A DNA stretch of 38,729 nt from Shigella phage ESh10. This document shows, one piece after another, positions 13,434-38,729 of the stretch. The stretch lies in sequence record ON528723, one strand, 5' to 3'. The number at the start of each line of letters is the position of its first letter. The stretch's first letter is position 1. Under the pieces are notes generated by a model that saw nothing but the letters and a program-made list of their open reading frames with translations, searched no databases and was not told the origin of the DNA. Made by a program: the position numbers and the translations under genes.

Positions 13434-13437
13434 TTAT

Positions 13438-14037: not shown

Positions 14038-14047
14038 GGAGGACTGA

Positions 14048-18026: not shown

Positions 18027-18035
18027 CAACAAGCA

Positions 18036-18078: not shown

Positions 18079-18099
18079 TTAACCCTCACTAACAGGAGG
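18077..18099 (+). promoter_or_regulatory. T3-type phage RNAP promoter
   Basis: ctttaaccctcactaacaggagg. Confidence 0.75.
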
Positions 18100-18106
18100 T
18101 AACATC

Positions 18107-18697
18107 ATGCGCTCTTATGAGATGAATATTGAGACCGCAGAAGAGCTATCAGCCGTCAACGACATTCTGGCTTCCATCGGTGAGCCACCAGTATCGACCC
18201 TTGAGGGTGATGCGAATGCTGACGTTGCGAATGCTCGACGTGTACTCAATAAGATTAACCGACAGATTCAATCACGAGGATGGACATTCAATATTGAGGA
18301 AGGTGTGACTCTTCTACCGGATGCGTTCTCTGGTATGATTCCATTTAGCTCTGACTACCTGTCCGTAATGGCAACCAGCGGTCAGACCCAATATATCAAC
18401 CGTGGTGGTTATCTCTATGACCGCTCTGCGAAGACCGACAGATTCCCTTCTGGTGTTCAGGTCAACCTGATTCGTCTGAGAGAGTTCGATGAGATGCCTG
18501 AGTGCTTCCGTAACTACATCGTTACCAAGGCTTCCCGTCAGTTCAACAACCGATTCTTCGGTGCGCCGGAGGTAGACGGAGTGTTGCAGGAAGAGGAACA
18601 GGAAGCGTGGCGTGCGTGCTTCGAGTACGAGCTAGACTACGGTAACTACAACATGCTGGATGGTGACGCATTCACCGCTGGTCTACTTAACCGCTAA
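18107..18697 (+). CDS. 11: tail tubular protein A
   Basis: 196 aa; T7 gp11-like. Confidence 0.92.
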
Positions 18698-18712
18698 TCA
18701 TAAGGAGGCTCT

Positions 18713-21118: not shown

Positions 21119-21138
21119 CTTAAAGTCTCCCTGTGGTG

Positions 21139-21162
21139 AATTAACCCTCACTAAAGGGAGAC
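21139..21162 (+). promoter_or_regulatory. T3-type phage RNAP promoter
   Basis: aattaaccctcactaaagggagac. Confidence 0.8.
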
Positions 21163-21190
21163 ACTAATAGATACGAGGTGTTAAAGCATT

Positions 21191-21601
21191 ATGTACTTTA
21201 CAAAGTGTTTACAAATCCATGCCGACAACTTTCAGCCGTCCATAGAGGACATTCTGGAAGCTGAGGCACTTGGTGTTGAACCAAAGGTAATTCCTGATGA
21301 GAACACTGTGGCAATGCTTAGCGATAACGCTGTGTTGGCAATTGGTGGCAATCAGGGAGACCGAGTGTGGTTCCTTACCTCTAAGTACGTCCCATTGTTT
21401 ACCTTGAAGGAGCGCTTAGAGTTTCGTAGACTCATCATTGAATATCGTGATATGATGCTGAGCCAGTACGAGTCCATTTGGAATTTCGTTTGGGTAGGCA
21501 GTAAGTCACACATTCGTTTCCTAAAGACCATAGGCGCGGTATTCCATAATGAGTTTACCGCTGATGGTCAATTCCAATTATTCACTATCAGTAGGAGGTA
21601 A
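21191..21601 (+). CDS. 13: internal virion protein A
   Basis: 136 aa; slot and size of T7 gp13. Confidence 0.8.
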   Translation: MYFTKCLQIHADNFQPSIEDILEAEALGVEPKVIPDENTVAMLSDNAVLAIGGNQGDRVWFLTSKYVPLFTLKERLEFRRLIIEYRDMMLSQYESIWNFVWVGSKSHIRFLKTIGAVFHNEFTADGQFQLFTISRR

Positions 21602-21603
21602 CT

Positions 21604-22197
21604 ATGTGCTGGATGGCAGCGATTCCTATTTCCATGATGGGTGCCCAAGCTCTAAGTAGCCAGAACAGTGCTGACAAGGCGCGAGTGGCACAGACCGAAG
21701 CTGGACGCAGACAGGCAATGGAGATGGTCAAAGAGATGAATATCCAAAATGCCAACGCCTCGCTGGAACAACGGGACGCCCTTGAAGCTGCATCCTCTGA
21801 GTTGACTACACGTAACATGCAGAAGGTACAGGCTATGGGAACCATCCGTGCAGCTATCGGCGAGGGCATGCTAGAAGGTGAGTCCATGAAGCGCATCAAG
21901 CGTATCGAAGAGGGCAACTACATTCGGGAGGCAAATAGTGTCACCGAGAATTACCGCCGAGACTACGCGAGTATCTTTGCGCAACAGTTGGGACGCACTC
22001 AGTCCACAGCAAGTCAAGTCGATGCAATGTACAAGAGCGAGGCCAAGGGTAAGTCTGGTCTGATGCGTGTACTAGACCCTCTGTCCATTATGGGTCAGGA
22101 AGCTGCAAGTCAATATGCGGCTGGTGGATTTGACAAGAAAGGTGGAAACCAAGCAGCACCTATCAGTGCCGCCAAAGGAACCAAGACCGGGAGGTAA
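21604..22197 (+). CDS. 14: internal virion (core) protein B
   Basis: 197 aa; T7 gp14-like. Confidence 0.85.
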   Translation: MCWMAAIPISMMGAQALSSQNSADKARVAQTEAGRRQAMEMVKEMNIQNANASLEQRDALEAASSELTTRNMQKVQAMGTIRAAIGEGMLEGESMKRIKRIEEGNYIREANSVTENYRRDYASIFAQQLGRTQSTASQVDAMYKSEAKGKSGLMRVLDPLSIMGQEAASQYAAGGFDKKGGNQAAPISAAKGTKTGR

Positions 22198-22199
22198 TA

Positions 22200-24443: not shown

Positions 24444-24461
24444 CAGTGATAAGGAGGCTCC

Positions 24462-27400
24462 ATGAGCTACGATAAGAACAAACCTAGCGAGTTCGATGGG
24501 TTATTTCAAAAAGCGGCAGACAAACATGGGGTCTCCTATGACCTGCTTCGTAAATTAGCATTCAATGAGTCCAGTTTCAATCCAAAGGCCAAATCACCAA
24601 CTGGCCCGAAGGGTCTCATGCAGTTCACCAAGGGTACAGCCACTGCGCTGGGACTCAAGGTCACTGATGCAGACGATGATGACCGCTACAACCCTGAGTT
24701 GGCTGTGGATGCAGCCGCTCGCCACCTGAGTGACCTCATTCGTAAATACGATGGGGACGAACTTAAGGCAGCCCTAGCGTACAACCAAGGCGAGGGAAGA
24801 AATGGTGCCCCTCAGATGCAGGCCTACGACAAAGGTGATTGGGCCTCAATCTCTGAGGAAGGTCGTAACTACATGCGCAACCTGATGGACGTAGCTAATA
24901 GTCCTCGCAAGGGGGACTTGGAGGCGTTCGGCGGTATCACCCCAAAGGCTAAGGGCATTCCATCGGGGGATGCATTTGCGGGAATCGGGAAGAAGCAGAC
25001 GGTAGGAACTGACCTGCCGGAATCAACTGGATTCAAAGTTGAGGGTAAAGAGCAGCAAGCGCCTAACGTGCCTTATGCTAAGGACTTTTGGGAAAAGACT
25101 GGAACAACACTGGACGAGTTTAACTCACGCTCTACCTTCTTCGGAATTGGCGATGCAACAAGTGCGGAGCTTCACAACTCTGTACTTGGAGTTGCTTTCC
25201 GTGCAGCCCGTAGCGACGATGGTTTTGATTTGTTCAAGGACACCATTACGCCTACCCGTTGGAATAGCCATACATGGACTCCAGAAGAGCTAGAGAGAAT
25301 CCGTAAGGAAGTGAAGAACCCATCATACATCAACGTAGTCACCGGAGGCTCTCCTGAGAATCTGGACGCCCTCATTAAGATGGCGAATGACAACTACGAG
25401 ATGGATGCGCGGTCTGCCGATGCTGGTGTTGGGGCCAAACTTACTGCTGGTATCGTCGGCGCTGGTGTAGACCCGCTTAGTTACGTGCCGCTAGTAGGCG
25501 TAGCCGGGAAGGGTCTCAAGGTGGTTAACAGGGCTTTCATTGTGGGTACTCAAAGTGCTGGCCTCGCGGTTGCCTCTGAGGGTATCCGCACATCAATAGC
25601 TGGTGGTGAAGCACACTACGTGGATGCTGCTTTAGGTGGTCTCATGTTCGGTGCTGGTATGAGTGCAATCAGTGACGCTATCGCTGCTGGTGTTCGCCGT
25701 TCCCGTGGGACTGAGGTCGTTAATGACTTCGCTCCTATGGCACACCGCTTGGAAGCCCGTGAGACCGCTCTGAACTCTGGTGGGGAAGACCTGACCCGTA
25801 TGCCTAGCGAGAACCGTGTGTTCGACCGTGAGCACGCTGGCGTTGAGTATTCACCTCTGGAGACCGAGCCGGGTGCCGTTGTGTTGCCTCAAGGTCAAAT
25901 CCTTAGCGACACCAACCCGCTGAACCCTCAGACTCTTAGCGAGTTCGAGGCGGTCAACCCTGAGCGTGCCGCTCGTGGTATCTCTTTGGGTGGTTTCACT
26001 GAGATTGGCTTGAAGACTCTCCGCTCTGAGAACCCGACTGTTCGCTCCATTGCGAGTGACCTTGTGCGTTCTCCAACAGGGATGGAATCAGGCTCTAATG
26101 GTAAGTTCGGTGCGACTGCTTCTGACATTAAGGAGCGGCTCCACGCGAACAATCAGCGCACCTACAATCAGCTTTATGATGCTGTGCGTATTGCAATGAA
26201 AGACCCTGAGTTCTCCACAGGTGGGGCCACAATGAGCCGTAAGGAAATCCGACAGGAAATCTACAAGCGTGCAGCCTTGGCGATTGAGCGGCCTGAGCTT
26301 CAAGCAAACCTGACAAAGGGTGAGCGGAACGTGATGAACATCCTCAAGCAGCACTTTGACCTCAAACGTGAAATCATGGAGAACCCGTCAATCTTCGGCA
26401 ACACCAAGGCGGTCAGTATCTTCCCAGGCTCACGCCACAAGGGAACCTACGTGCCAAACGTGTACGACCGCGCTATCAAGATTGAGATGGTTAAACGCTA
26501 CGGTAATGATGGCTTGCAGCGAGCAATCGCGGAGTCATGGTTGACGTCTTATCGTGCTCGTCCAGAAGTCAAGGCGAGGGTCGATGAGTACCTGATGGAA
26601 CTTAACGGCCTCAAATCCGTGCAGGAAGTTACGCCTGAGATGGTGCAGAAGCACGCGATGGATAAGGCGTATGGTATTTCACACACCGACCAGTTCTCTG
26701 CCTCCTCTGTCATTGATGATAACATTGAGGGTCTGGTGGGTATCGAGAACAACAACTTCTTGGAAGCCCGTAACATGTTCGACAGTGACATGGCGGTGAC
26801 TCTCCCTGATGGTAACACGTTCTCTGTGAATGACCTGCGTACCTATGACATGGCTGAAATTCTGCCTGCATACGACCGACGAGTAGATGGTGATGTTGCA
26901 ATCATGGGTGGTTCCGGTAAGACTACCAAAGACCTGAAAGATGAAATCATGGCGCTGGACAAGCAGTCAGAGGGCAACGGCACATTGAAAGGTGAAGTGG
27001 AAGCCCTCAAGGATACCGTGAAGATTCTAACTGGTCGTGCTCGTAGGAACCCGGAAGGCGCTTGGGGTACAGCCCTGCGCTCCGTTAATGACCTCACGTT
27101 CTTTGCTAAGAACGCCTATATGGGCGCACAGAACGTTACTGAAATCGCTGGTATGCTGGCGAAGGGTAACGTCTCTGCGATAACTCATGGCATCCCTATG
27201 ATTAACGATTGGGTCAACCGTGGTAAACCGCTTCGTGCCTCTGAGATTAAGGAGATACACGGGATGGTGTTCGGTAAGGAACTAGACCAACTAATCCGTC
27301 CGGGGCGTGAAGACCACGTGCGCCGACTCCGGGAGTCTACGGACACCAGCGCTGCGGTTGCCAATGTGGTCGGTACGATTCGTTTCGGCACTCAAGAGTT

Positions 27401-28424
27401 GGCTGCACGCTCTCCTTGGACAATGCTCCTAAACGGAACATCAAACTACATTCTTGATGCTGCCCGTCAGGGTGTGCTTGGGGATGTGGCTGGAGCGGCC
27501 CTTGCTGGGAAAGCCTCTAAGTTCGGTAAGGCAAACTACCTTAAGTCTGCCTCTATCAGCCCTGAGCAGTGGAATGGAATCAAGCAGTTGTTCAGAGACC
27601 ATGCGACTCGTGGAGAAGACGGTAAGTTCACCATTCGTGACAAACAGGCTTTCGCTAACGACCCACGTTCAATGGACTTGTGGCGACTGGCTGATAAGGT
27701 GGCGGATGAGACTATACTGCGCCCTCACAAGGTTTCCTCACAGGACTCCAAAGCGTTCGGTGCAGGGGTGAAGATGGTGATGCAGTTTAAGAACTTCGTC
27801 ATCAAGTCCCTTAACTCCCGGTTCGTCCGTAGCTTCTACGAGGCAACTAAGAACAACCGTGCGTTAGACCAAGCGTTGACTCATATCATCTCCTTGGGTC
27901 TAGCTGGTGGTTACTACGTTGCGCAGGCGCACCTTAAGGCCGCAAGCCTACAGGAGCACAAACGTAAGGAGTACCTTAAGAACGCCCTTGACCCTAAGAT
28001 GATTGCTCATGCATCAATCTCTCGTAGCTCACACTTAGGCTCACCATTGAGTATCTACGATATGTTCGCTGGGATGGTTGGTAGCGATACCTATAAGTAC
28101 ACCCGCTCTACGGTGCTCCCTAAAGAGTCCGAGAAGCGTGACCCTAACAAGGCAGTGACAGGTAGACAGGTGGCTTCGACTATCGCAGGTGCAGTTGGTG
28201 AGCAGGTTCCGGGTTTAGGTTTTGTTGGCTCTGTGGGTGCAACAGCTATTAACGCTGCTTCCCTGCTGTCTTCTCCAAACAAGGCTACCGCTCTGGAGTT
28301 CCGTACAGGACTCTTCAACACCTCTCGTGAGTTGATTCCTAATGACCCGCTATCGCAGCAACTCATTATGAAAATCTACGAGGCCAATGGTATCCGCATA
28401 AAGGAGATTCCGAAGAAACAATAA
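24462..28424 (+). CDS. 16: internal virion (core) protein D with N-terminal lytic transglycosylase domain
   Basis: 1320 aa; N-terminus …LLRKLAFNESSFNPKAKSPTGPKGLMQFT… is a soluble lytic transglycosylase-type motif. Confidence 0.93.
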   Translation: MSYDKNKPSEFDGLFQKAADKHGVSYDLLRKLAFNESSFNPKAKSPTGPKGLMQFTKGTATALGLKVTDADDDDRYNPELAVDAAARHLSDLIRKYDGDELKAALAYNQGEGRNGAPQMQAYDKGDWASISEEGRNYMRNLMDVANSPRKGDLEAFGGITPKAKGIPSGDAFAGIGKKQTVGTDLPESTGFKVEGKEQQAPNVPYAKDFWEKTGTTLDEFNSRSTFFGIGDATSAELHNSVLGVAFRAARSDDGFDLFKDTITPTRWNSHTWTPEELERIRKEVKNPSYINVVTGGSPENLDALIKMANDNYEMDARSADAGVGAKLTAGIVGAGVDPLSYVPLVGVAGKGLKVVNRAFIVGTQSAGLAVASEGIRTSIAGGEAHYVDAALGGLMFGAGMSAISDAIAAGVRRSRGTEVVNDFAPMAHRLEARETALNSGGEDLTRMPSENRVFDREHAGVEYSPLETEPGAVVLPQGQILSDTNPLNPQTLSEFEAVNPERAARGISLGGFTEIGLKTLRSENPTVRSIASDLVRSPTGMESGSNGKFGATASDIKERLHANNQRTYNQLYDAVRIAMKDPEFSTGGATMSRKEIRQEIYKRAALAIERPELQANLTKGERNVMNILKQHFDLKREIMENPSIFGNTKAVSIFPGSRHKGTYVPNVYDRAIKIEMVKRYGNDGLQRAIAESWLTSYRARPEVKARVDEYLMELNGLKSVQEVTPEMVQKHAMDKAYGISHTDQFSASSVIDDNIEGLVGIENNNFLEARNMFDSDMAVTLPDGNTFSVNDLRTYDMAEILPAYDRRVDGDVAIMGGSGKTTKDLKDEIMALDKQSEGNGTLKGEVEALKDTVKILTGRARRNPEGAWGTALRSVNDLTFFAKNAYMGAQNVTEIAGMLAKGNVSAITHGIPMINDWVNRGKPLRASEIKEIHGMVFGKELDQLIRPGREDHVRRLRESTDTSAAVANVVGTIRFGTQELAARSPWTMLLNGTSNYILDAARQGVLGDVAGAALAGKASKFGKANYLKSASISPEQWNGIKQLFRDHATRGEDGKFTIRDKQAFANDPRSMDLWRLADKVADETILRPHKVSSQDSKAFGAGVKMVMQFKNFVIKSLNSRFVRSFYEATKNNRALDQALTHIISLGLAGGYYVAQAHLKAASLQEHKRKEYLKNALDPKMIAHASISRSSHLGSPLSIYDMFAGMVGSDTYKYTRSTVLPKESEKRDPNKAVTGRQVASTIAGAVGEQVPGLGFVGSVGATAINAASLLSSPNKATALEFRTGLFNTSRELIPNDPLSQQLIMKIYEANGIRIKEIPKKQ

Positions 28425-28443
28425 ACCCTCACTAAAGGGAGAG
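28420..28443 (+). promoter_or_regulatory. T3-type phage RNAP promoter
   Basis: aataaaccctcactaaagggagag. Confidence 0.8.
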
Positions 28444-28496
28444 AGGTCACATTCTGGCCTCTTCTCTCCTAATGCTAATTTACAAAAGGAGGTCAC

Positions 28497-30239
28497 ATGG
28501 CTACAACTATTAAGACCGTGATGACTTACCCGCTGGATGGTTCAACTACGGACTTTAATATTCCGTTCGAGTATCTGGCGCGTAAGTTCGTCCGAGTGAC
28601 CCTTATCGGTGTTGACCGAAAGGAACTCATCTTGAATAAAGACTATCGTTTTGCGACTAAGACCACAATCTCCACAACGAGAGCATTGGGGCCAGCGGAC
28701 GGTTATAACCTTATCGAGATTCGTCGGTACACCTCAGCGACTGAACGTCTGGTTGACTTTACGGATGGCTCAATCCTCCGTGCGTATGACCTGAACATCT
28801 CGCAGGTGCAGACCCTCCACGTTGCTGAGGAAGCGCGTGACCTTACCGCTGATACGATTGGCGTTAACAACGATGGTGACTTGGATGCTCGTGGTCGTCG
28901 TATCGTGAACGTTGCGGACGCTAAAGACCACGGTGATGCAATCAACTTAGGTCAAGTCCAGAAGTGGAACGACTCTGCGTTGAACTCTGCGAACCGCGCA
29001 CGGGCTGAGGCCGACCGTGCAACTGTGCGTGCTTCCGAGGCTGCTACCTCTGCGGGTAACTCTGCGAGTTCTGCAAGCCTGTCCCGTGATTGGGCTATCA
29101 AGGAATCGCCGGTGGAAGGAACCTTTAAGTCTTCCCGGTCGTATGCCCTTGACTCTATGGCGTACCGGGATGCGTCCAAGAGTTCTGCTGATGCTAGTGC
29201 TGCAAGTGCTGGTGCCGCGAAGACCTCTGAGATTAACACGAAGAACTCAGAAATCGCCGCGAAGACCTCTGAGACCAACGCGAAGGCCTCTGAGACCAAC
29301 GCTAAGGCTTCCGAGGAACGAGCCATTGAGGAAGCAAATAAGCTGGAGAACATGAATGGATTGGCTGGTGCCCTTGATAGGGTAGATGGAACAAATGTAT
29401 ACTGGAAAGGAAATATTAACGCTAATGGGCGGCTTTTCCTGACCAAAAACGGTTTTGATTGTGGTCAGTATCAACAGTTCTTTGGAGGCGAACCTAACCG
29501 TTACTCTGTCATGGAGTGGGGTGATAAGGACGGCTGGCATTTGTATTCTGAGAGGAAAACCGAAGGCGGTAGGCCAACGCTTAACGTGTTTGGTGATTTG
29601 AGCGTCGGTTTTGATATTCGGGCTGGTGCTACTCAATTTGCTAATCACATGTTTGTACACGACATGGTACAATACTGGCCCGGTGCTGGCAAGTTTGCTA
29701 ACCAGTTGTCTATCCCAGAAGCGCCATTTATCAAACAAGGGAGATACGAGGCCCCATCTGGTAACAGCTTATACGCCCCTATTGTTAAGGGAATCATACG
29801 GACGGCAGGTCACGGGTATAACACAGCGCTGTCCTTTGGTACTCTAACACAGGGTAACGGGTCGTTTGCTTCTGCGTGTATTCATGCGATTGGGGATAAC
29901 GGCACTTCTGGTTTCTGGGAATTTAACCCTAACAATAGGTCCTTCCGTAGTCAAGGTGATGGGCTCTTTGGCAACACTACTGTCTATCAGGATGGTAACA
30001 TCGGTGGCCCTACGTGGGGTGGCGACCTAGCGCAATGGCTCAGAGTAAATACGGTTAACCACATTGCTATGGGTGGAGTCAACCAGTCAACAGTGTGGAA
30101 TAGCTACGGTGTTTCTGATGGTGGCGGTAAGGTAGTAACTGGCGTTGTAAACTCTAACGCTGATGGTGCGATAGACTTTTGTCAGTGGCGTGTTATGCAA
30201 TTCGTTCGTAACGACGGTCAACGCTTTAATATTTACTGA
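28497..30239 (+). CDS. 17: tail fibre protein (T7 gp17-type N-terminal adaptor domain; heterologous-looking distal domain)
   Basis: 580 aa; N-terminus MATTIKTVMTYPLDGSTTDFNIPFEYLARKFV…DFTDGSILRAYDLN is the conserved tail-attachment domain; shaft with heptad-like repeats; distal ~250 aa Gly/Asn/Trp-rich. Confidence 0.9.
   Translation: MATTIKTVMTYPLDGSTTDFNIPFEYLARKFVRVTLIGVDRKELILNKDYRFATKTTISTTRALGPADGYNLIEIRRYTSATERLVDFTDGSILRAYDLNISQVQTLHVAEEARDLTADTIGVNNDGDLDARGRRIVNVADAKDHGDAINLGQVQKWNDSALNSANRARAEADRATVRASEAATSAGNSASSASLSRDWAIKESPVEGTFKSSRSYALDSMAYRDASKSSADASAASAGAAKTSEINTKNSEIAAKTSETNAKASETNAKASEERAIEEANKLENMNGLAGALDRVDGTNVYWKGNINANGRLFLTKNGFDCGQYQQFFGGEPNRYSVMEWGDKDGWHLYSERKTEGGRPTLNVFGDLSVGFDIRAGATQFANHMFVHDMVQYWPGAGKFANQLSIPEAPFIKQGRYEAPSGNSLYAPIVKGIIRTAGHGYNTALSFGTLTQGNGSFASACIHAIGDNGTSGFWEFNPNNRSFRSQGDGLFGNTTVYQDGNIGGPTWGGDLAQWLRVNTVNHIAMGGVNQSTVWNSYGVSDGGGKVVTGVVNSNADGAIDFCQWRVMQFVRNDGQRFNIY
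29217..29322 (+). repeat. approximately 21-bp imperfect tandem repeat (about 4-5 units) within gene 17
   Basis: gcgaagacctctgagaccaac-like units; protein-level repeat AKTSE(T/I)N. Confidence 0.6.
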
Positions 30240-30251
30240 TAGGAGGACGAT

Positions 30252-30776
30252 ATGGGAACTTTACGTCACTATAAGAATTTCGTAAATTACACTCCAGAAC
30301 GCACCAAAGAGAATGCAGACCTTCTAGACCACGGAGTCGGTTTCTCAAAGGATGAGAACGGGAATGACTGGTATGAACTTCGCAATACATTCCGTGAGGA
30401 TACATGGAAACTTGTCTACGCCAAAGATGGTTCAGTTATTCAATGTGAACAGGATGTTCAGGAGTTAGCCGTTCAGGGATCTGCTGGGGTGGTTGAGCTT
30501 GAGGAAATCCCTACTGAGTATTCTCGGTACAATATGGTTCAGTGGGGGTGGGACGGCGATAAGCTAACTTGGCATCCTCGGTACTTTGAGCACAAGAAGG
30601 CCCAGCTAATCTCTATGGCCTCCAAGAAGATTGAGCAGTATGCTGACTTTATAGCTCTTGGGGAGGAGGGATTAGAGGGTCTACTAAATGCGTGGCGAGC
30701 CTATCGCCTTGCTGTATATAAAGTAGACCTTAGTGTTCTACCTTTCTATGACTGGCCCGAGCAACCAGAAACCTAA
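30252..30776 (+). CDS. tail fibre assembly (Tfa-like) chaperone
   Basis: 174 aa; AGGAGG SD 13 nt after gene 17 stop; C-terminus …GLLNAWRAYRLAVYKVDLSVLPFYDWPEQPET matches the lambda Tfa / P2 G / Mu U C-terminal motif (LxAWxxYRxxLxxVDxSxxPxxxWPxxP). Confidence 0.7.
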   Translation: MGTLRHYKNFVNYTPERTKENADLLDHGVGFSKDENGNDWYELRNTFREDTWKLVYAKDGSVIQCEQDVQELAVQGSAGVVELEEIPTEYSRYNMVQWGWDGDKLTWHPRYFEHKKAQLISMASKKIEQYADFIALGEEGLEGLLNAWRAYRLAVYKVDLSVLPFYDWPEQPET

Positions 30777-30835
30777 TGACAACCTCAAGGAAAGACGTGT
30801 AGTCCACGGATGGACTCTTACAAGGAGGACACTAC

Positions 30836-31039
30836 ATGCTGTCTTTAGATTTTAACAACGAGTTAGTCAAGGCTGCACCTATTGTTGGTACAGGTGTTGC
30901 CGATGGCGCTGCGAGGCTTTTCTTCGGGTTGAGTCTTAATGAGTGGTTCTACGTTGCAGCTATCGCCTACACAGTGGTTCAGATTGGTGCCAAGGTAGTC
31001 GATAAGATGATTGACTGGAAACGTGCAAATAAGGAGTGA
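30836..31039 (+). CDS. 17.5: type II holin
   Basis: 67 aa; a hydrophobic segment and a charged C-terminus; T7 gp17.5-like. Confidence 0.8.
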   Translation: MLSLDFNNELVKAAPIVGTGVADGAARLFFGLSLNEWFYVAAIAYTVVQIGAKVVDKMIDWKRANKE

Positions 31040-31042
31040 CCT

Positions 31043-31309
31043 ATGAGTGACAAGACTTTAATCAAGCTGCTGGAGATGCTGGACACGGAGATGGCACAGC
31101 GTATGCTTGCTGACCTCCAGAGCGAGGAACGCCGAACTCCGCAGCTTTACAACGCAATCGGCAAACTGTTAGACCGCCATAAGTTCCAAATCAGTAAGCT
31201 GACCCCGGATGAGAACATCCTCGGTGGACTGGCGGCAGGTCTGGAAGACTACAACAAAGTGGTAGGCCCTAATGGTCTGACTGACGATGAGGCCATCACG
31301 CTACAGTAA
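31043..31309 (+). CDS. 18: terminase small subunit (DNA maturation protein A)
   Basis: 88 aa; T7 gp18-like. Confidence 0.85.
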   Translation: MSDKTLIKLLEMLDTEMAQRMLADLQSEERRTPQLYNAIGKLLDRHKFQISKLTPDENILGGLAAGLEDYNKVVGPNGLTDDEAITLQ

Positions 31310-31316
31310 GTGACAT

Positions 31317-31349
31317 ACTCAAGGTTCTCCACGCGGGGAGCCTTTATGG
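31317..31349 (+). promoter_or_regulatory. RNase III-type processing hairpin
   Basis: actcaaggttctccacgcggggagcctttatgga. Confidence 0.55.
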
Positions 31350-31398
31350 ATGTTATTTGGCGCATCTATGTGAAATCTGAAAATTGATGGGAGGTGTT

Positions 31399-31851
31399 AT
31401 GCTAAAACTTTTACGCAGCGCACTCCCTTGGGTACTCGCCGGGACACTCTTTATGGGTGGCTGGCACTTAGGGTCAACCCATGAGAGAGCAAACTGGAAG
31501 GAGGTAATTCAAAATGAATACATTGCGAAAACAAAAGCAACCGCAGCAACTCAGGCAGAGGTCGGTCGTGTATCCCGTGAGTACCAAGAAGAGATTGCAG
31601 CCATTGAAGGCAGCACTGATAGGATGCTTAATGACCTGCGTAGTAATAATAAGCGGCTGTCAGTCCGCATCAAGACCCTTACCGGACTACCAGAAGATAA
31701 CGGTAGATGCGAGTTTAATGGTCGAGCCGAACTACACGAGTCAGATGCTAAGCGTATTATCGGAATAACCCAAGCTGCTGATGCTCACGTAAGAGCGCTC
31801 CAGCGTACTATTAAGGAGATGCAGAATGAGCGACACCCAAGCAAACCGTAA
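31399..31851 (+). CDS. 18.5: i-spanin (Rz-like)
   Basis: 150 aa from ATG 31399 (GGGAGG SD); N-terminal TM segment then coiled-coil-like periplasmic domain. Confidence 0.8.
31514..31768 (+). CDS. 18.7: o-spanin (Rz1-like lipoprotein) nested out of frame inside the Rz gene
   Basis: 84 aa; lipobox-like …VVIISGC followed by Pro-rich short mature region; entirely within 31399..31851 in another frame. Confidence 0.7.
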   Translation: MNTLRKQKQPQQLRQRSVVYPVSTKKRLQPLKAALIGCLMTCVVIISGCQSASRPLPDYQKITVDASLMVEPNYTSQMLSVLSE

Positions 31852-33589
31852 TGCGCTAATCATCGCGCAGCTTAAGGGTGACTTCGTGGCCTTCCTGTTC
31901 GTATTGTGGAAGGCTTTGGCTCTCCCGCCACCGACTAAGTGTCAGATTGATATGGCCCGGTGTCTGGCTAACGGAGACAACAAGAAGTTTATCCTACAGG
32001 CTTTCCGTGGTATCGGTAAGTCATTCATCACTTGTGCGTTCGTTGTGTGGACGTTATGGCGTGACCCTCAGTTGAAGATACTGATTGTCTCTGCATCCAA
32101 AGAACGTGCGGACGCTAACTCCATCTTCATCAAGAACATCATTGACCTGCTACCATTCTTGGCTGAGCTAAAGCCTCGCCCCGGTCAGCGTGACTCTGTG
32201 ATTAGTTTCGATGTTGGCCCTGCCAAGCCTGACCACTCTCCGTCTGTGAAGTCGGTGGGTATCACTGGTCAGTTGACTGGTAGCCGTGCTGATATCATCA
32301 TAGCGGATGACGTTGAGATTCCGTCTAACTCCGCAACTCAAGGTGCCCGTGAGAAGCTGTGGACTCTGGTGCAGGAATTTGCTGCGCTTCTGAAACCGCT
32401 GCCAACTTCTCGCGTTATCTACCTTGGCACGCCTCAAACCGAAATGACCTTGTACAAGGAACTCGAAGATAACCGTGGGTACACCACAATAATCTGGCCT
32501 GCGCTCTATCCGCGTAGCCGTGAGGAAGACTTGTACTATGGCGACCGTCTGGCCCCGATGCTCCGCGAAGAGTTCAACGATGGGTTCGAGATGCTCCAAG
32601 GTCAACCGACTGACCCCGTGCGCTTCGATATGGAAGACCTGCGTGAGCGTGAGTTGGAATACGGTAAGGCGGGCTTCACTTTGCAGTTCATGCTCAACCC
32701 GAACCTGAGTGATGCCGAGAAGTACCCCTTACGCCTCCGTGACGCTATCGTGTGCGGTCTGGACTTCGAGAAAGCCCCGATGCATTACCAGTGGCTTCCG
32801 AACCGTCAGAATCGCAATGAAGAGCTTCCTAACGTGGGCCTTAAGGGTGATGATATTCATAGCTATCATTCGTGCAGCCAGAACACTGGACAGTACCAGC
32901 AACGCATCCTCGTGATTGACCCTAGTGGTCGCGGTAAGGATGAGACAGGTTACGCAGTGTTGTTCACCCTGAATGGCTACATCTATCTGATGGAAGCTGG
33001 CGGGTTCCGCGATGGTTATTCCGATAAGACCCTTGAGTCCCTCGCTAAGAAAGCGAAGCAGTGGAAGGTTCAGACAGTGGTCTTCGAGAGTAACTTCGGG
33101 GATGGTATGTTTGGTAAGGTATTCAGCCCTGTGCTCCTGAAACACCATGCAGCCGCTATGGAAGAGATTCGCGCTCGTGGTATGAAGGAACTACGCATTT
33201 GTGATACGCTGGAGCCTGTACTCTCTACGCACCGCCTTGTGATTCGTGACGAGGTGATTCGTGAGGACTACCAGACTGCCCGTGATGCTGATGGCAAGCA
33301 TGACGTTCGCTATTCACTGTTCTACCAGTTGACCCGTATGGCCCGTGAGAAGGGCGCTGTGGCACATGACGACCGACTTGATGCGTTAGCATTGGGTGTG
33401 GAGTTCTTACGCTCTACGATGGAACTGGACGCCGTGAAGGTGGAGGCTGAGGTGCTTGAGGCGTTCTTAGAGGAACACATGGAGCACCCAATCCATTCGG
33501 CTGGTCATGTAGTTACCTCTATGGTTGACGGGATGGAACTCTATTGGGAGGATGACGATGTGAATAGCAACAGGTTCATTGACTGGTAG
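31826..33589 (+). CDS. 19: terminase large subunit (DNA maturation protein B)
   Basis: 587 aa; Walker A-like …GIGKSF…, T7 gp19-like along its length. Confidence 0.95.
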
Positions 33590-33669
33590 TTATGCATATT
33601 GAGCGCATAAGGAAGCATTGAGACCACGGATGGTCACTTTAAGAAACTCCTTAAGAATCAATGAGTTTG

Positions 33670-33692
33670 AATTAACCCTCACTAAAGGGAGA
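33670..33692 (+). promoter_or_regulatory. T3-type phage RNAP promoter (right-end promoter, phiOR-like)
   Basis: aattaaccctcactaaagggagag. Confidence 0.8.
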
Positions 33693-33832
33693 GAGGGGAC
33701 TTAAAGCTATTATATAGGTTAGTCATTCAGGTTATGCAATGACCCTTTATGCACTTTAAGTCTCCTCTATGATTGGTGATATTATCATTGTATAATCACC
33801 CTACCTTAGAGCAACTGAAAGGAGGTGGCTCA

Positions 33833-33982
33833 ATGTTGCGCTTGCTGATTGCCCTGCTGCGTCATAGAGTCACTTGGCGATTTCTTCTGGTACTTACTGC
33901 TACCCTTGGGTACGCAGGTCTTACTGACCACCTCGGTCAACTGGAAGTGGCCTTTTGCTCTATACTCTCTTGTGGGGATTAA
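33833..33982 (+). CDS. 19.5: gene 19.5 protein (49 aa, hydrophobic)
   Basis: ATG 33833 after AAGGAGG; 49 aa as T7 gp19.5; ORF-track start 33773 lacks an SD. Confidence 0.55.
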   Translation: MLRLLIALLRHRVTWRFLLVLTATLGYAGLTDHLGQLEVAFCSILSCGD

Positions 33983-34076
33983 ATTATTGTTGATGACCGA
34001 CAAGCGGCTCTGAGGGATTCGTAGGTATAGTTTCACTACACCAACTCATCCCTCTAGAGTCAACCATAAAGGTTAT

Positions 34077-34555
34077 ACCTAAAGATGCCCTGTAGTTCGT
34101 AATGGTCTTACAGGGTCTTCTGGTGTCTCCTAGCTATCCCTTCGGGATGCGCCTATGGTCTCACCTATGGTGTGGCCTTACCTAAAGTGGTTGCCTAAAG
34201 AGACCCTTTAAGAATTTACCACAAAAATCTGAATGGGTATCTCACAGTTCAAGAACCCAAAGTACCCCCATAGCCCTCCTAAAGCCACCTAAAGCCAGCC
34301 CTACCCTAGGGTTTAACCTTCGGTTAACCTTGGGTATCTCCTCAAGTGGCCTATAGGATAGCCTAAAGTGTTGCCTAAAGTCAATACCTAAAGAGGTGGA
34401 TGGCTTAAGGAGGACTTGAAGAGTGTCCTAGTGTACCAGTTCGATAGTACATCTCTATGTGTCCCTATCTGTTAGCCTCATAAAGTAAACCCTAAAGCCA
34501 CCACCTAAAGACCAGACCTAAAGCCACCACCTAAAGAGTAGCGCTATCTTAAAGA
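34077..34555 (+). repeat. array of dispersed CCTAAAG-type heptamer repeats typical of T7-family genome ends
   Basis: More than 12 copies of (A)CCTAAAG or one-mismatch variants, e.g. 34077, 34181, 34194 and the run ccctaaagccaccacctaaagaccagacctaaagccaccacctaaagag. Confidence 0.7.
34240..34470 (+). repeat. terminal repeat of the mature genome (single copy here; genome left end at 34240)
   Basis: tctcacagttcaagaacccaaagtaccccc at 34240 matches the extreme left end of T3/T7 DNA (TCTCA(C/T)AGT…); right boundary (~34466-34470, …tgtgtccct) placed by analogy and approximate. Confidence 0.5.
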
Positions 34556-34628
34556 CAACCAGACCGATAGACCAACTGTTAACCTGTAGTGATGCCCTGT
34601 AGTTGTCTATGGTGTCTATCGTCAATTC

Positions 34629-34650
34629 AATTACCCTCACTAAAGGGAAT
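34629..34650 (+). promoter_or_regulatory. T3-type phage RNAP promoter (left-end promoter, phiOL-like)
   Basis: aattaccctcactaaagggaat followed by AT-rich segment. Confidence 0.75.
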
Positions 34651-34704
34651 GAGGTTGATACTTAAAGAGGGAATAAAGATTTAATAAAAGATTTAAATTA
34701 ATGG

Positions 34705-34734
34705 TTGACTTTAAGTTACCTTTAAGGCTATTAT
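34705..34734 (+). promoter_or_regulatory. host sigma70 early promoter (A1-like)
   Basis: TTGACT (34705..34710), 18-nt spacer, TATTAT (34729..34734). Confidence 0.65.
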
Positions 34735-34833
34735 TCATCACGTCAACGGGACAACGGCCTTAAAGCCACTCCCTGAGATACCGGAGTCAACCGGATAAGT
34801 AGACAGCCTGATAAGTCATACGAAAAACAGGCA

Positions 34834-34862
34834 TTGACAACATGAAGTAAACGCAGTAAGAT
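34834..34862 (+). promoter_or_regulatory. host sigma70 early promoter (A2-like)
   Basis: TTGACAacatgaagtaa… -35 at 34834..34839, 17-nt spacer, TAAGAT at 34857..34862; near-identical to T7 A2. Confidence 0.8.
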
Positions 34863-34934
34863 GCACAACATGACGTTAACCACCGCTTCGGTGTCTTCTA
34901 GGCGACTTAAGCGCACCACGGCACATAAAGCGAA

Positions 34935-34963
34935 ACAAAATGGTTGACAACATGAAGTAAGCA
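34935..34963 (+). promoter_or_regulatory. host sigma70 early promoter (A3-like)
   Basis: TTGACAacatgaagtaagcacgg TACGAT; -35 at 34935..34940, -10 at 34958..34963; near-identical to T7 A3. Confidence 0.8.
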
Positions 34964-35184
34964 CGGTACGATGTACCACATGAAAGACACCGAGTGTCGT
35001 AGGTGTAAAAACGCGACATAGTGGATAGATGGCGAAAGCACAAGCGACCACGATAATAAAGAGCTTGTCGCACTTATAACGCAAGTGACGGCTAACACTG
35101 AAATAGCCTCAGCTCGACGAAACTGTAGCCTAAAGTTCTTTAACAATCTGGATAATAGCTCTTGAGTGTACCGTATAAGCGAAT

Positions 35185-35222
35185 AACTCAAGGTCGCACT
35201 GAAAGCGTGGCCTTTATGATAT
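35185..35222 (+). promoter_or_regulatory. RNase III-type processing hairpin upstream of gene 0.3
   Basis: aactcaaggtcgcactgaaagcgtggcctttatgat. Confidence 0.65.
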
Positions 35223-35256
35223 TCACTTAACATGAACTAACATGAGGTAACACCAA

Positions 35257-35715
35257 ATGATTTTCACTAAAGAGCCTGCTAACGTCTTCTATGTACTGGT
35301 GTCAGCATTCCGTTCTAACCTTGATGATGAGGTGAACATGAGCCGCCACCGCCACATGGTGAGCGAATTGCGTGCCGCACCGGGTATCTACGGAGAACTT
35401 GAGTCTACCGATTTGACCGGGTGCTATCGTGAGAGTATCGCACTGGCTCCAACCGAGGAAAAGACCATGCGTTTACTCTGCAAGAACAAAGAGCAGGCAC
35501 TACAGGTAGCTCGCTTAGCTTGCAATGAGTATGAGCAAGATTGCGTACTGGTATACAAATCACAGACTCACACAGCGGGATTGGTGTACGCTAAGGGTAT
35601 CGACGGTTACAAGGCTGAACGTCTGCCGGGTAGCTTCCAAGAAGTGCCCAAAGGCGCACCGCTGCAAGGCTGCTTTACGATTGACGAGTTCGGTCGCCGC
35701 TGGCAGGTGGCCTAA
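35257..35715 (+). CDS. 0.3: S-adenosyl-L-methionine hydrolase (SAMase), anti-restriction protein
   Basis: 152 aa; MIFTKEPANVFYVLVSAFRSNL… recognised as T3 gene 0.3 SAMase, not the T7 Ocr DNA mimic. Confidence 0.9.
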   Translation: MIFTKEPANVFYVLVSAFRSNLDDEVNMSRHRHMVSELRAAPGIYGELESTDLTGCYRESIALAPTEEKTMRLLCKNKEQALQVARLACNEYEQDCVLVYKSQTHTAGLVYAKGIDGYKAERLPGSFQEVPKGAPLQGCFTIDEFGRRWQVA

Positions 35716-35716
35716 C

Positions 35717-35872
35717 ATGAATCGTTATTACATCAACGTACCGGGCTGGGGTGGGTCTCTAACCTGCTACGGATACAACGAACGGGACGCACGGAAACGT
35801 TTTAGAGAACAACACGGATTCGGAAGGCTTCCTAATGGGACGCGCCTATGGCTGGACGCCCGTGATTGGTAA
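35717..35872 (+). CDS. small early protein (51 aa), hypothetical
   Basis: MNRYYINVPGWGG…; ATG 2 nt after the 0.3 stop; same frame as ORF 35525..35872. Confidence 0.5.
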   Translation: MNRYYINVPGWGGSLTCYGYNERDARKRFREQHGFGRLPNGTRLWLDARDW

Positions 35873-35877
35873 GTGAT

Positions 35878-35913
35878 AGACTCAAGGTCGCACTGTATGT
35901 GTGGCCTTTATGA
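35878..35913 (+). promoter_or_regulatory. RNase III-type processing hairpin
   Basis: actcaaggtcgcactgtatgtgtggcctttatgatt. Confidence 0.65.
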
Positions 35914-35939
35914 TTATCACTAAGTATAGGACTAACACC

Positions 35940-36140
35940 ATGAGTAAACTTCTGGCAACATCTAAAATAGAAGGCCAATGCACCGTAACACTGCGTGAGT
36001 ATTACCACGGGTCAATGGGAAGCACCTATATTGTGCGATACGGTAAACAGGTCACACATTGGGTAAACCCGATTTTAGCACAAGAGGATTATCAAGCCTG
36101 TGTGATGCACCAAGCAACATGTGCAGGCTGGAATGATTGA
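35940..36140 (+). CDS. small early protein (66 aa), hypothetical
   Basis: MSKLLATSKIEGQCTVTL…; ORF-track start 35901 lies inside the RNase III hairpin, so 35940 is preferred. Confidence 0.5.
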   Translation: MSKLLATSKIEGQCTVTLREYYHGSMGSTYIVRYGKQVTHWVNPILAQEDYQACVMHQATCAGWND

Positions 36141-36159
36141 CATTACAGGAGGATTGGCA

Positions 36160-36318
36160 ATGGTTATCTTTATCGCTGTCGCACTCTTTGCGGTCGCTGG
36201 CTGGTACTCTGAGTCACGCAAGGCCGCTCGCTATCATCGCAAGATGGTTAAACTCATGGAACACTTGGACGCAGAAGGGCGAGGCCGCGAGGCTATCGAA
36301 CTGGTGAAACACGCATGA
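36160..36318 (+). CDS. small early membrane protein (52 aa), hypothetical
   Basis: ATG after CAGGAGG; single predicted TM helix MVIFIAVALFAVAGW. Confidence 0.45.
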   Translation: MVIFIAVALFAVAGWYSESRKAARYHRKMVKLMEHLDAEGRGREAIELVKHA

Positions 36319-36512
36319 TGATTCTCTTTATCGCACTGGTCTATCTGTGCATCGCAATGTACTTTATGCGAGACTTTAAGCGCGGTCTGGTAATACACAA
36401 GGCAACGCTGAGTTACTTTAAGTGGGGATTCATCCCACGGTTTACGGTTCGTGAACGTAACGGACGCTTTAAGGCCAACAAGGTAGGAGTATTCTACATT
36501 GCTACGCACTAA
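36315..36512 (+). CDS. small early membrane protein (65 aa), hypothetical
   Basis: ATGATGA start/stop overlap with preceding ORF; hydrophobic N-terminus MMILFIALVYLCIAMYF. Confidence 0.5.
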   Translation: MMILFIALVYLCIAMYFMRDFKRGLVIHKATLSYFKWGFIPRFTVRERNGRFKANKVGVFYIATH

Positions 36513-36543
36513 CTCAAAGCACGTAAAGATTGCACTGTATGCG

Positions 36544-36669
36544 ATGGCTTATGGTGCATCGAAACGCAAGGTCAAACGCATCTTAACGAGACACCGCAAG
36601 ATGACCGCACGACAGGCTGCAAGCGCTGTCAAATGGGCTGAATTTACTCTTTACTCTTCTTACAGATAA
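36544..36669 (+). CDS. small basic peptide (41 aa), hypothetical
   Basis: MAYGASKRKVKRILTRHRKMTARQAASAVKWAEFTLYSSYR; no strong SD. Confidence 0.3.
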   Translation: MAYGASKRKVKRILTRHRKMTARQAASAVKWAEFTLYSSYR

Positions 36670-36683
36670 CAGGACACTGAACG

Positions 36684-37793
36684 ATGACTTTCACCGAAGC
36701 ACAAGCCGCACTCGAAGCTATCCGCAACCTACCGATTGAGCGTCTGAACGAGCGCCAGCCCATGCTGGTGGCTCTTGCGGCTGCCATCGTGAACGATGAG
36801 ACCCAAGACGGGCAACTGACGCAGGCAGCAGGAAACACGGCGCTAGAGCACATGGACTACTGGCAGACCCTAGCGGCGCGTATGCGTGATGTTGGTTTCA
36901 TCAAGCTGGGCAATGGTCACTTTAGCGCAGCATATGAGCACGCATTGTTACCGGGCAAGGTCATCAAGGTAGGCTTTAAGAAAGAGGACTCAGGCGCAGC
37001 CTATGCAGCCTTCTGCCGTATGAATCAAGGCCGGGAAGGTATCCCTAAGGTGTATGACATTCAGCGCCATGCTGGTTGTTACACGGTGGTTCTTGATTAT
37101 CTGAATCCGCTTAACTACTGGTGCGATGGTGAGAGTGACAAGATTCGTCACCACTTCAAGGCCGCACGGGAAATCATTGAGGAGGATTGCTTTGATGCTG
37201 CCGAAGAGTACCCAATAAGTGACGGGTTCATTGAGACCTGCAAGGATATCCGCAAGTTCTTCTTAGGCATCGCATCGTTCGACTGCCACAGCGGGAACAT
37301 GATGAAAGACCAGATGGGACGCCTGATTATCACAGACCCGGTATCATTCAGCGCAGACGACAAGTTAAAGCCGGGTGAGTTCCACTGTGACCCGGATGAA
37401 CTCATCGCTGAGATTGAGGCGCTGAGAGCGCAGGAAGCGATTGACCGCTGCAAGGCACGTAAGGCACGCCGTGACCCTAAAGGAGACTTTCAGGTAGCAC
37501 GTAAAGCCCGTGCCAAATGGCGCAGAAAGGCCTCTAAGCGTGAGAAGCGCAACGCTAAGGTACTCGCTAAGATGCGCATGGATGCCAACGAGCAACGTAG
37601 GGCCGAGCCTAGGGCACGTATGTTGTGGGGCGATAAGCACTGGCGCAACGCTTGGGTGCAGCACATGAATGTTGACTTCGCACGGCTAGAACTGTTAGCA
37701 GCCGCACAGATGGCACAGATAGACCACAAGGCTATCGTATGTGGCAAGCCGTTACACATAGACGCATACCTTGACAAGAGACTGCAAGGCTGA
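36684..37793 (+). CDS. 0.7: serine/threonine protein kinase / host transcription shut-off protein
   Basis: 369 aa; T7 gp0.7-like (…LGNGHFSAAY…VIKVGFKKEDSGAAY…FCRM…GIPKVYD…). Confidence 0.9.
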   Translation: MTFTEAQAALEAIRNLPIERLNERQPMLVALAAAIVNDETQDGQLTQAAGNTALEHMDYWQTLAARMRDVGFIKLGNGHFSAAYEHALLPGKVIKVGFKKEDSGAAYAAFCRMNQGREGIPKVYDIQRHAGCYTVVLDYLNPLNYWCDGESDKIRHHFKAAREIIEEDCFDAAEEYPISDGFIETCKDIRKFFLGIASFDCHSGNMMKDQMGRLIITDPVSFSADDKLKPGEFHCDPDELIAEIEALRAQEAIDRCKARKARRDPKGDFQVARKARAKWRRKASKREKRNAKVLAKMRMDANEQRRAEPRARMLWGDKHWRNAWVQHMNVDFARLELLAAAQMAQIDHKAIVCGKPLHIDAYLDKRLQG

Positions 37794-37863
37794 TAGAGTC
37801 TTTTCTTACAGGTCATCATGAGGTGGCCTGAATAGGAACGATTTATCCATAGTGAGGCAAGCA

Positions 37864-38729
37864 ATGAACATCATCGAAACTATCGAAAAGAATGACTTCT
37901 CTGAAATCGAACTGGCTGCTATCCCGTTCAACACGCTGGCAGACCACTACGGCAGCGCACTGGCTCGTGAACAACTGGCTTTAGAGCACGAGTCTTATGA
38001 GTTAGGTGAGCGCCGCTTCCTCAAGATGCTGGAGCGTCAAGCGAAAGCTGGTGAGATTGCAGACAACGCAGCCGCTAAGCCATTACTCGCTACGCTTCTC
38101 CCTAAGTTAACCGCACGCATCGTTGAGTGGCTCGAAGAGTACGCCTCTAAGAAAGGCCGCAAGCCTGTAGCCTATGCACCACTCCAATCACTCAAGCCGG
38201 AGGCGTCCGCGTTTATCACACTCAAGGTCATCCTTGCATCACTGACCAGCACGAACATGACAACCATTCAGGCCGCTGCTGGTATGCTGGGGAAGGCCAT
38301 TGAGGACGAGGCACGTTTCGGTCGCATCCGTGACCTCGAAGCGAATCACTTCAAGAAGCACGTTGAGGAACAGCTTAACAAGCGCCACGGGCAAGTCTAC
38401 AAGAAAGCCTTTATGCAGGTGGTAGAGGCAGACATGATTGGTCGCGGGCTGCTGGGAGGTGAGGCGTGGTCTAGCTGGGACAAGGAAACCACGATGCACG
38501 TAGGGATTCGCCTGATTGAAATGCTGATTGAATCCACAGGTCTGGTGGAATTACAGCGCCACAACGCAGGTAACGCAGGCTCTGACCATGAGGCACTGCA
38601 ACTGGCACAAGAGTACGTCGATGTGTTAGCGAAGCGTGCAGGCGCTCTGGCGGGTATCTCTCCGATGTTCCAGCCGTGTGTCGTACCGCCGAAACCTTGG
38701 GTATCAATCACAGGTGGCGGCTATTGGGC
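37864..38729 (+). CDS. 1: T3-type DNA-directed RNA polymerase, N-terminal 288 codons (3'-partial; continues at position 1)
   Basis: MNIIETIEKNDFSEIELAAIPFNTLADHYG… recognised as T3/T7 RNAP N-terminus; frame continues exactly into 1..1789. Confidence 0.95.
   Translation, partial: MNIIETIEKNDFSEIELAAIPFNTLADHYGSALAREQLALEHESYELGERRFLKMLERQAKAGEIADNAAAKPLLATLLPKLTARIVEWLEEYASKKGRKPVAYAPLQSLKPEASAFITLKVILASLTSTNMTTIQAAAGMLGKAIEDEARFGRIRDLEANHFKKHVEEQLNKRHGQVYKKAFMQVVEADMIGRGLLGGEAWSSWDKETTMHVGIRLIEMLIESTGLVELQRHNAGNAGSDHEALQLAQEYVDVLAKRAGALAGISPMFQPCVVPPKPWVSITGGGYW

What the first reader, a model, noticed from the sequence alone, without database searches (positions are those of the whole stretch)
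37864..38729. Window is an exact circular permutation opening inside gene 1
The 3' partial RNAP ORF at the window end and the 5' partial ORF at the window start join in frame to give an 884-codon gene. Annotation pipelines that treat the record as linear will report two truncated polymerase fragments and may misplace the genome ends.
Basis: seen in the sequence. Interest (0 to 1): 0.2.

Follow-up and report, generated by a model that had tools for sequence, protein, structure and literature searches.

The report
Phage record opened inside polymerase gene
The window is a complete genome of a T3-like phage written as a circle and cut open inside its RNA polymerase gene; this is an ordinary, well-known by-product of assembling phages with repeated ends, not a biological feature.

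Summary
Window 37864..38729 (866 nt) joined to 1..1789 gives a 2655-nt ORF of 884 codons plus TAA, with no internal stop. It aligns without gaps to T3 RNA polymerase (98.6% aa) and to phage AP5 RNA polymerase (98.9% aa). The break falls inside codon 289 (GC|T). No base is missing or duplicated at the junction: a 41-mer spanning it occurs exactly, and internally, in three independent viral contigs, and the +-150 nt around it align to them without gaps.

Rotating the window to 34240 makes it collinear with T3 1..37977 and AP5 1..38411, which is every base up to the start of their right terminal repeats. The window therefore holds one unit genome with a single copy of the terminal repeat, about 34240..34466 (227 bp by homology to T3).

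The most likely cause is an assembler that collapsed the two terminal repeats, closed the circle and opened it at an arbitrary base. The predicted virion DNA is linear with fixed ends, about 38,956 bp. Rotation alone restores gene 1, but a second repeat copy must be added at the right end to represent the virion DNA.

Already known; low interest.

The parts
37864..38729 (+). 5' part of gene 1 (T3-type RNA polymerase): codons 1-288 plus the first two bases of codon 289. RBS GAGG at 37854-37857.
   Evidence: ATG at 37864; the piece is 866 nt; gap-free alignment to T3 gene 1.
1..1789 (+). 3' part of gene 1: third base of codon 289, codons 290-884, and stop TAA at 1787-1789.
   Evidence: the join gives 884 aa; Pfam RNA_pol (residues 451-858) and RPOL_N (residues 37-323, which span the junction at residue 289).
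34240..34466 (.). The single copy of the direct terminal repeat. The left genome end, TCTCACAG, is at 34240. The right boundary is placed by homology to the T3 repeat, whose last bases are ...GTGTCCCT. Other records would place it at 34485 (AP5) or 34490 (ChM-G5, whose repeat also starts 23 nt earlier, at 34217).
   Evidence: no second copy in the window.
33675..33690 (+). Core of the T3-type promoter phiOR, to the left of the repeat, as in T3.
   Evidence: T3 annotation.
34633..34648 (+). Core of the T3-type promoter phiOL, to the right of the repeat.
   Evidence: T3 annotation.
34705..34972 (+). Three host sigma-70-type early promoters (A1, A2, A3 equivalents) that drive the early genes, including gene 1.
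   Evidence: 10/12 matches each; repeat family D3; T3 annotation.
1806..1821 (+). Core of the T3-type promoter phi1.05, immediately after the gene 1 stop.
   Evidence: T3 annotation.
31043..31309 (+). Gene 18, small terminase (T7-type DNA packaging protein A).
   Evidence: PF11123, E = 1.2e-16.
31826..33589 (+). Gene 19, large terminase (T7-type).
   Evidence: PF22530 (Terminase-T7 RNaseH-like), E = 5.9e-40.

Best explanation
The window is one unit length of a T3-like (Teetrevirus) phage genome, written as a circle and opened at an arbitrary base, which happens to be inside codon 289 of gene 1.

Phages of this type package linear DNA with fixed ends and a short direct terminal repeat. Reads from the two repeat copies, or from replicative concatemers, overlap, so an assembler merges them, closes the contig and picks a random first base. 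As a result the record holds one repeat copy (about 34240..34466) in its interior, and gene 1 is split across the record ends.

Gene 1 itself is intact and ordinary: an 884-aa T3-type single-subunit RNA polymerase with its cognate promoters. The predicted virion DNA starts at 34240, runs round through 38729|1 to 34239, and ends with a second copy of 34240..~34466, for about 38,956 bp.

Shown here: the in-frame join, the seamless junction, the single repeat copy, and collinearity with relatives. Inferred: the physical ends, and the assembly history of this record.
For: Join: 2655 nt, 884 aa, no internal stop; any other phase gives early stops.

Homology: gap-free, same-length alignment to T3 RNAP (98.6% aa, 95.1% nt) and AP5 RNAP (98.9% aa).

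Seamless junction:
- The 41-mer across the junction occurs exactly, and internally, in 3 IMG/VR contigs.
- The +-150 nt around it align to them without gaps.
- Single HSPs run across the junction: 7,251 nt to T3 and 23,988 nt to AP5.

Collinearity after rotation at 34240:
- Window 34240 = T3 base 1 = AP5 base 1.
- Window 34239 = T3 37977 = AP5 38411, the last base before their right terminal repeats.
- Both copies of the T3 and AP5 repeats map to the same single stretch of the window.
- The window has no second copy and no end overlap.

Agreement on the left end: T3, AP5 and phiYe-F10, all with annotated terminal repeats, start at the base homologous to 34240.

Genome type: T7-type terminase genes and 15 T3-type promoters, all on the + strand.

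How common this is: in 47 of the 60 best-matching public records the repeat region matches only one place, in nearly all of them deep inside the record, so they open at arbitrary positions too. One record is even declared circular.

[quoted passage not shown] The T7-like phage P-SSP7 assembled as a circle and was wrongly thought to be permuted, until its ends were sequenced and showed a 206-bp repeat (PMC3350473).
Against: No reads or virion DNA are available, so the physical ends and the doubling of the repeat are inferred from homology only.

The right boundary of the repeat is uncertain by about 25 nt. Public annotations disagree: T3 gives 34466, AP5 34485, and ChM-G5 34490 with a start at 34217.

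The source record could not be found. A window-specific 100-mer is absent from the viral, metagenome and genome contig collections, and there is no match of 99% or better in the phage collection. Its assembly history, or a deliberate rotation by whoever prepared the window, therefore cannot be checked.
Confidence: 0.93

Rival explanations
1. The circle reflects real concatemer junctions. The DNA sequenced included intracellular replicating concatemers, in which unit genomes are joined through a single repeat copy, and the contig is a faithful unit of that concatemer rather than a computational collapse of two virion ends.
For: The arrangement found (right arm, one repeat, left arm) is exactly that of a T7/T3 concatemer junction. 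This identification rests on established knowledge of T7 replication and on the concatemer packaging described in PMC5557969.
Against: Sequence alone cannot separate this from repeat collapse; both give the same record. The practical consequence is identical: gene 1 is intact and the ends are misplaced.
Confidence: 0.04
2. The phage genuinely packages circularly permuted, terminally redundant DNA by a headful mechanism, so there are no fixed ends and any opening point is equally valid.
For: The window closes seamlessly on itself. Sequence alone cannot prove fixed ends.
Against: The left-end and right-end motifs are conserved at positions homologous to the annotated T3 ends. The flanking phiOR and phiOL promoters and the CCTAAAG-type repeats have the same layout as in T3. 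The terminase is T7-type. The closest relative, AP5, which is 96% identical over the aligned 94% of the genome, is annotated with fixed 235-bp repeats, and T3 with 231-bp repeats. The same mistake was made for the T7-like phage P-SSP7 and later corrected (PMC3350473).
Confidence: 0.02
3. The two end fragments are separate truncated polymerase pieces: an incomplete or mis-joined linear record with sequence missing between 38729 and 1.
For: None beyond how the linear record looks.
Against: The join is in frame and gap-free, with the same 2655-nt length as gene 1 of T3 and AP5. The exact junction 41-mer is found inside three independent contigs.
Confidence: 0.01

Closest known systems
Enterobacteria phage T3 (NC_003298), gene 1 RNA polymerase and 231-bp direct terminal repeats
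   Same: Gene 1 has the same length (2655 nt) and is 98.6% identical at the protein level with no gaps. The catalytic residues D538, K632, Y640 and D813, and the T3-type D749, are identical. Promoters are T3-type. The whole genome is collinear once rotated to 34240. The repeat is bounded by homologous sequence: left end TCTCAYAG..., right end ...GTGTCCCT.
   Different: The T3 record is written from its physical left end and carries both repeat copies. The window carries one copy and opens inside gene 1. The window also lacks the T3 gene 5.3 HNH endonuclease region, has extra small early ORFs, and has a different tail-fibre C-terminus plus a tail-fibre assembly gene.
Yersinia phage vB_YenP_AP5 (KM253764), the closest annotated relative
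   Same: 96.1% nt identity over 94% of the genome. The RNAP is 98.9% identical. AP5 base 1 corresponds to window 34240, and AP5 38411 (the last base before its right repeat) to window 34239.
   Different: The AP5 record has both 235-bp repeats at its ends. AP5 has an extra ORF (25766-26155) and a different tail-fibre distal part. Aligned fraction times identity is about 0.90, so the window is probably a different species-level lineage.
Circularised or arbitrarily opened public records of DTR phages (for example the Leclercia phage 10164-302 record declared circular, and the original P-SSP7 assembly)
   Same: The artefact is the same: the terminal repeat is collapsed to one copy and the first base is arbitrary (PMC3350473; PMC5557969).
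   Different: Most such records open between genes or at the terminase gene. This one happens to open inside gene 1.

Membership tests
T7/T3-type single-subunit DNA-dependent RNA polymerase | Pfam RNA_pol (PF00940) and RPOL_N (PF14700) both above their gathering scores | tested here: met
   371.6 bits (cut-off 22) and 93.7 bits (cut-off 30.1). The RPOL_N match, residues 37-323, spans the junction residue 289.
T7/T3-type single-subunit DNA-dependent RNA polymerase | Catalytic Asp pair and the Lys and Tyr of the palm/fingers (T7 D537, D812, K631, Y639; T3 numbering is +1) | tested here: met
   D538, K632, Y640 and D813 are present in the gap-free alignment to T3 RNAP. The residue roles are from established knowledge of T7 RNAP.: T7 RNAP structure 1cez, E = 0, covers residues 6-884.
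T7/T3-type single-subunit DNA-dependent RNA polymerase | T3-type promoter specificity, with cognate promoters in the same genome | tested here: met
   D749, as in T3 (T7 has N748; from prior knowledge).: 15 matches to ACCCTCACTAAAGGGA with at most 2 mismatches, all on the + strand, against 0.03 expected by chance.
Teetrevirus / T7-like linear genome with short direct terminal repeats | Gene order collinear with T3 from the left end to the right end | tested here: met
   after rotation to 34240 the window is collinear with T3 1..37977 and AP5 1..38411.
Teetrevirus / T7-like linear genome with short direct terminal repeats | Sequence homologous to the terminal repeat, with conserved end motifs, lying between phiOR and phiOL | tested here: met
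   34240..34466 aligns to both T3 repeat copies. It lies between phiOR (33675) and phiOL (34633).
Teetrevirus / T7-like linear genome with short direct terminal repeats | The repeat is present at both physical ends of the virion DNA, and the termini are fixed | not testable with these tools
   The record holds one copy only. Testing this needs reads or virion DNA.
Teetrevirus / T7-like linear genome with short direct terminal repeats | T7-type small and large terminase | tested here: met
   PF11123 (gene 18) and PF22530 (gene 19).
Headful-packaged, circularly permuted genomes (P22/T4 type) | Variable termini and no conserved fixed-end sequences | tested here: not met
   The sequences at the annotated T3 ends are conserved at homologous positions. 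Three relatives with annotated repeats start at the same homologous base.

The most novel reading that the evidence does not exclude
This T3-like phage really does package circularly permuted DNA, or exists as a circle, so the permutation is biological rather than an artefact of the record. A more modest alternative is that the genome is an unrecorded species-level Teetrevirus lineage. It has about 90% intergenomic similarity to AP5 and carries an LL2-type tail-fibre and assembly-protein module. That alternative is likely true but routine.
Probability: 0.02. Interest if true: 0.45.

Novelty: already known. Interest (0 to 1): 0.05.

Why it matters
The value is practical only. Annotated as a linear record, the window yields a truncated or mis-started polymerase: the ORF listing gave a 590-aa TTG-start fragment and lost the N-terminal 288 codons. 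It also hides the true genome ends and under-reports the genome length by one terminal repeat (about 227 bp).

The fix is simple. Start the record at 34240 and append a second copy of the repeat at the right end. The same problem affects most related public records, so the case is a useful reminder for pipelines. It teaches nothing new about phage biology.

Tried and rejected
1. Looked for an overlap between the two window ends, the usual sign of a circular assembly. There is none of 8-400 nt.

2. Looked for a second copy of the terminal repeat near 34240. Only short CCTAAAG-type repeats and the A2/A3 promoter duplication turned up.

3. Tried to find the source record or contig, to see how it was assembled. 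All attempts failed:
- The gp0.7 kinase protein is not on record.
- A window-specific 100-mer (38620-38719) is absent from viral contigs, metagenome contigs and genome contigs.
- A 41-mer from the early region hit only Enterobacter phage E-2.
- The best match in the phage collection is 96.7%.
Provenance remains unknown.

4. Considered that the join might be a coincidental in-frame fusion of two pseudogene fragments. Rejected because of the gap-free, same-length identity to T3 and AP5 gene 1 and the exact junction 41-mer in independent contigs.

5. Considered true headful permutation. Rejected as unlikely because the fixed-end sequences and the T7-type terminase are conserved.

6. Checked whether the 174-aa ORF after the tail fibre was something unusual. 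It is a known, already annotated tail-fibre assembly protein shared with LL2, Leclercia 10164-302 and Seera.

Full report
**What the window is.** The 38,729-bp window is the genome of a T3-like podophage (Autographiviridae, Studiervirinae, Teetrevirus).
- All large ORFs lie on the + strand, in T3 gene order.
- Fifteen T3-type promoter cores (ACCCTCACTAAAGGGA, at most 2 mismatches) are present, all on the + strand, against 0.03 expected by chance.
- The closest public records are Yersinia phage vB_YenP_AP5 and Enterobacter phage E-2, at 96.7% over the first 25 kb.

**Checking the observation.** The ATG of the 3' partial ORF is at 37864, six bases after GAGG at 37854-37857. The nearest in-frame upstream stop is at 37819.
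- From 37864 to the window end is 866 nt, that is 288 codons plus 2 nt.
- Base 1 of the window completes codon 289 (GC|T, Ala). The frame then runs to TAA at 1787-1789.
- The joined ORF is 2655 nt, giving 884 aa and one terminal stop. Shifting the join by one or two bases produces stops at codons 305 and 301.
- T3 gene 1 (2976..5630) and AP5 gene 1 (3303..5957) are also exactly 2655 nt.
- Without any gap, the joined protein is 872/884 (98.6%) identical to T3 RNAP and 98.9% identical to AP5 RNAP. The nucleotide identity to T3 is 95.1%.
- Around the junction the protein reads ...ITGGGYW-A-NGRRPLALV..., identical to T3.
- Pfam RPOL_N (residues 37-323, spanning the junction) and RNA_pol (residues 451-858) both score far above threshold.
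- T7 RNAP structures match residues 6-884 with E = 0.
- The catalytic residues D538, K632, Y640 and D813, and the T3-type D749, are in place.

**Is the join exact?**
- The two window ends share no overlap of 8-400 nt.
- A 41-mer spanning the junction occurs exactly, and internally, in three independent IMG/VR contigs. The +-150 nt around the junction align to each of them without gaps at 96.7-97%.
- Single BLAST HSPs run straight across the junction: 7,251 nt against T3 and 23,988 nt against AP5.

**What the arrangement means.** I rotated the window to start at 34240 and compared it with T3 and AP5.
- Window 34240 aligns to base 1 of both records (TCTCACAG in AP5 and the window, TCTCATAG in T3).
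- Window 34239 aligns to T3 37977 and AP5 38411. These are the last bases before their annotated right terminal repeats, which start at 37978 and 38412.
- Both copies of the T3 repeat (231 bp) and of the AP5 repeat (235 bp) map to one and the same stretch of the window.
- The window has no second copy.

The window is therefore exactly one unit genome with a single repeat copy. That is the arrangement of a concatemer junction, or of an assembly in which the two terminal copies were merged.

**Where the ends are.** By homology to T3, whose repeat ends ...GTGTCCCT, the repeat is 34240..34466 (227 bp). The predicted virion DNA is then about 38,956 bp.
- Public annotations disagree slightly on the boundaries: AP5 would give 34485, and ChM-G5 would give 34217..34490. 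The right boundary is uncertain by about 25 nt.
- T3, AP5 and phiYe-F10, all with annotated repeats, start at the base homologous to 34240.
- The surroundings match T3: phiOR at 33675, gene 19.5, the repeat with a leftward A0-like promoter (34384..34355), phiOL at 34633, then three strong host promoters at 34705-34972.
- The terminase genes are T7-type.
- The rotation point lies in non-coding DNA.

**Mechanism.** The best-supported reading is a representation artefact.
- Phages of this group package linear DNA with fixed ends and short direct terminal repeats.
- The T7-like cyanophage P-SSP7 assembled as a circle and was wrongly taken to be circularly permuted, until end sequencing showed a 206-bp terminal repeat (PMC3350473).
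- The artefact is common in this very genus. In 47 of the 60 best-matching records the repeat region matches only one place, in nearly all of them deep inside the record. One record is declared circular. LL2 and phiCFP-1 open at other arbitrary bases.

The only unusual detail here is that the arbitrary opening falls inside gene 1.

The mechanical ORF list for the linear window shows only a 590-aa TTG-start fragment at 17..1789, and no N-terminal piece at all.

**Rivals.**
- A faithful copy of real concatemer junctions from replicating DNA cannot be told apart from repeat collapse without reads, and it has the same consequences.
- True headful permutation is unlikely, given the conserved end sequences, the T7-type terminase and the fixed-end relatives.
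- A broken or incomplete record is refuted by the seamless junction.

**Limits.** I could not find the source record.
- The gp0.7 protein is not on record.
- A window-specific 100-mer is absent from all three contig collections.
- No record in the phage collection is 99% identical or better.

The assembly history, or a deliberate rotation of the window, therefore cannot be checked, and the physical termini are inferred by homology only.

**Verdict.** The permutation belongs to the record, not to the phage. One terminal-repeat copy also has to be added after rotation to represent the virion DNA. The phenomenon is already known and of low interest. After rotation to 34240, gene 1 occupies 3625..6279.

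Noticed in passing
window 28922-30787 (gene 17 distal part; ORF 30252..30776): The C-terminal part of the tail fibre (580 aa) does not match T3 or AP5. It is followed by a 174-aa tail-fibre assembly protein (Pfam Caudo_TAP, phrog_136) that T3 and AP5 lack. The whole module is 96.5% identical to Escherichia phage LL2 and 93-94% identical to Leclercia phage 10164-302 and Serratia phage Seera. This looks like a host-range module swap, and it is already annotated in those records.
   Followed up: yes
window 28418-28440: The promoter upstream of gene 17 is T3-type here (AATAAACCCTCACTAAAGGGAGA). At the homologous place T3 itself carries a T7-type promoter sequence (TAATACGACTCACTATAGGGAGA), annotated there as not used by T3 RNAP.
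   Followed up: partly
window 35708-36358: The early region between gene 0.3 (SAM hydrolase, 35257..35715) and the gene 0.6/0.65 equivalents is about 530 nt longer than in T3. It holds small ORFs of unknown function: 35717..35872 (51 aa, phrog_13225), 35901..36140 (phrog_6500) and 36121..36318 (phrog_25811). Only parts of it are shared with AP5.
   Followed up: partly
window 11369-11692: The T3 gene 5.3 HNH endonuclease (T3 15168-15473) has no counterpart here. The DNA polymerase gene is followed directly by the gene 5.5 homologue (11411..11707).
   Followed up: partly
window 21602/21603: AP5 has a 390-nt hypothetical ORF (AP5 25766-26155) between genes 13 and 14 that is absent from the window. 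The alignment breaks cleanly at this point.
   Followed up: no
window 34989-35137: The window has 148 nt between the A3 promoter and the RNase III R0.3 region where T3 has about 54 nt. This stretch is shared with AP5 and E-2.
   Followed up: no
whole window against AP5 (L015): Aligned fraction 0.94 times identity 0.961 gives about 0.90 intergenomic similarity to the closest annotated relative. This is below the usual 95% species line, so the phage is probably an unrecorded species-level Teetrevirus lineage. This is a crude BLAST estimate, not a VIRIDIC calculation.
   Followed up: partly
public records L001/L002, L005/L006, L010-L014: Annotated terminal-repeat boundaries differ among close relatives: T3 231 bp, AP5 and phiYe-F10 235 bp, and ChM-G5 276 bp starting 23 nt further left. 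Several 'complete genome' records open at arbitrary bases near the repeat. End annotation in this genus is inconsistent.
   Followed up: partly
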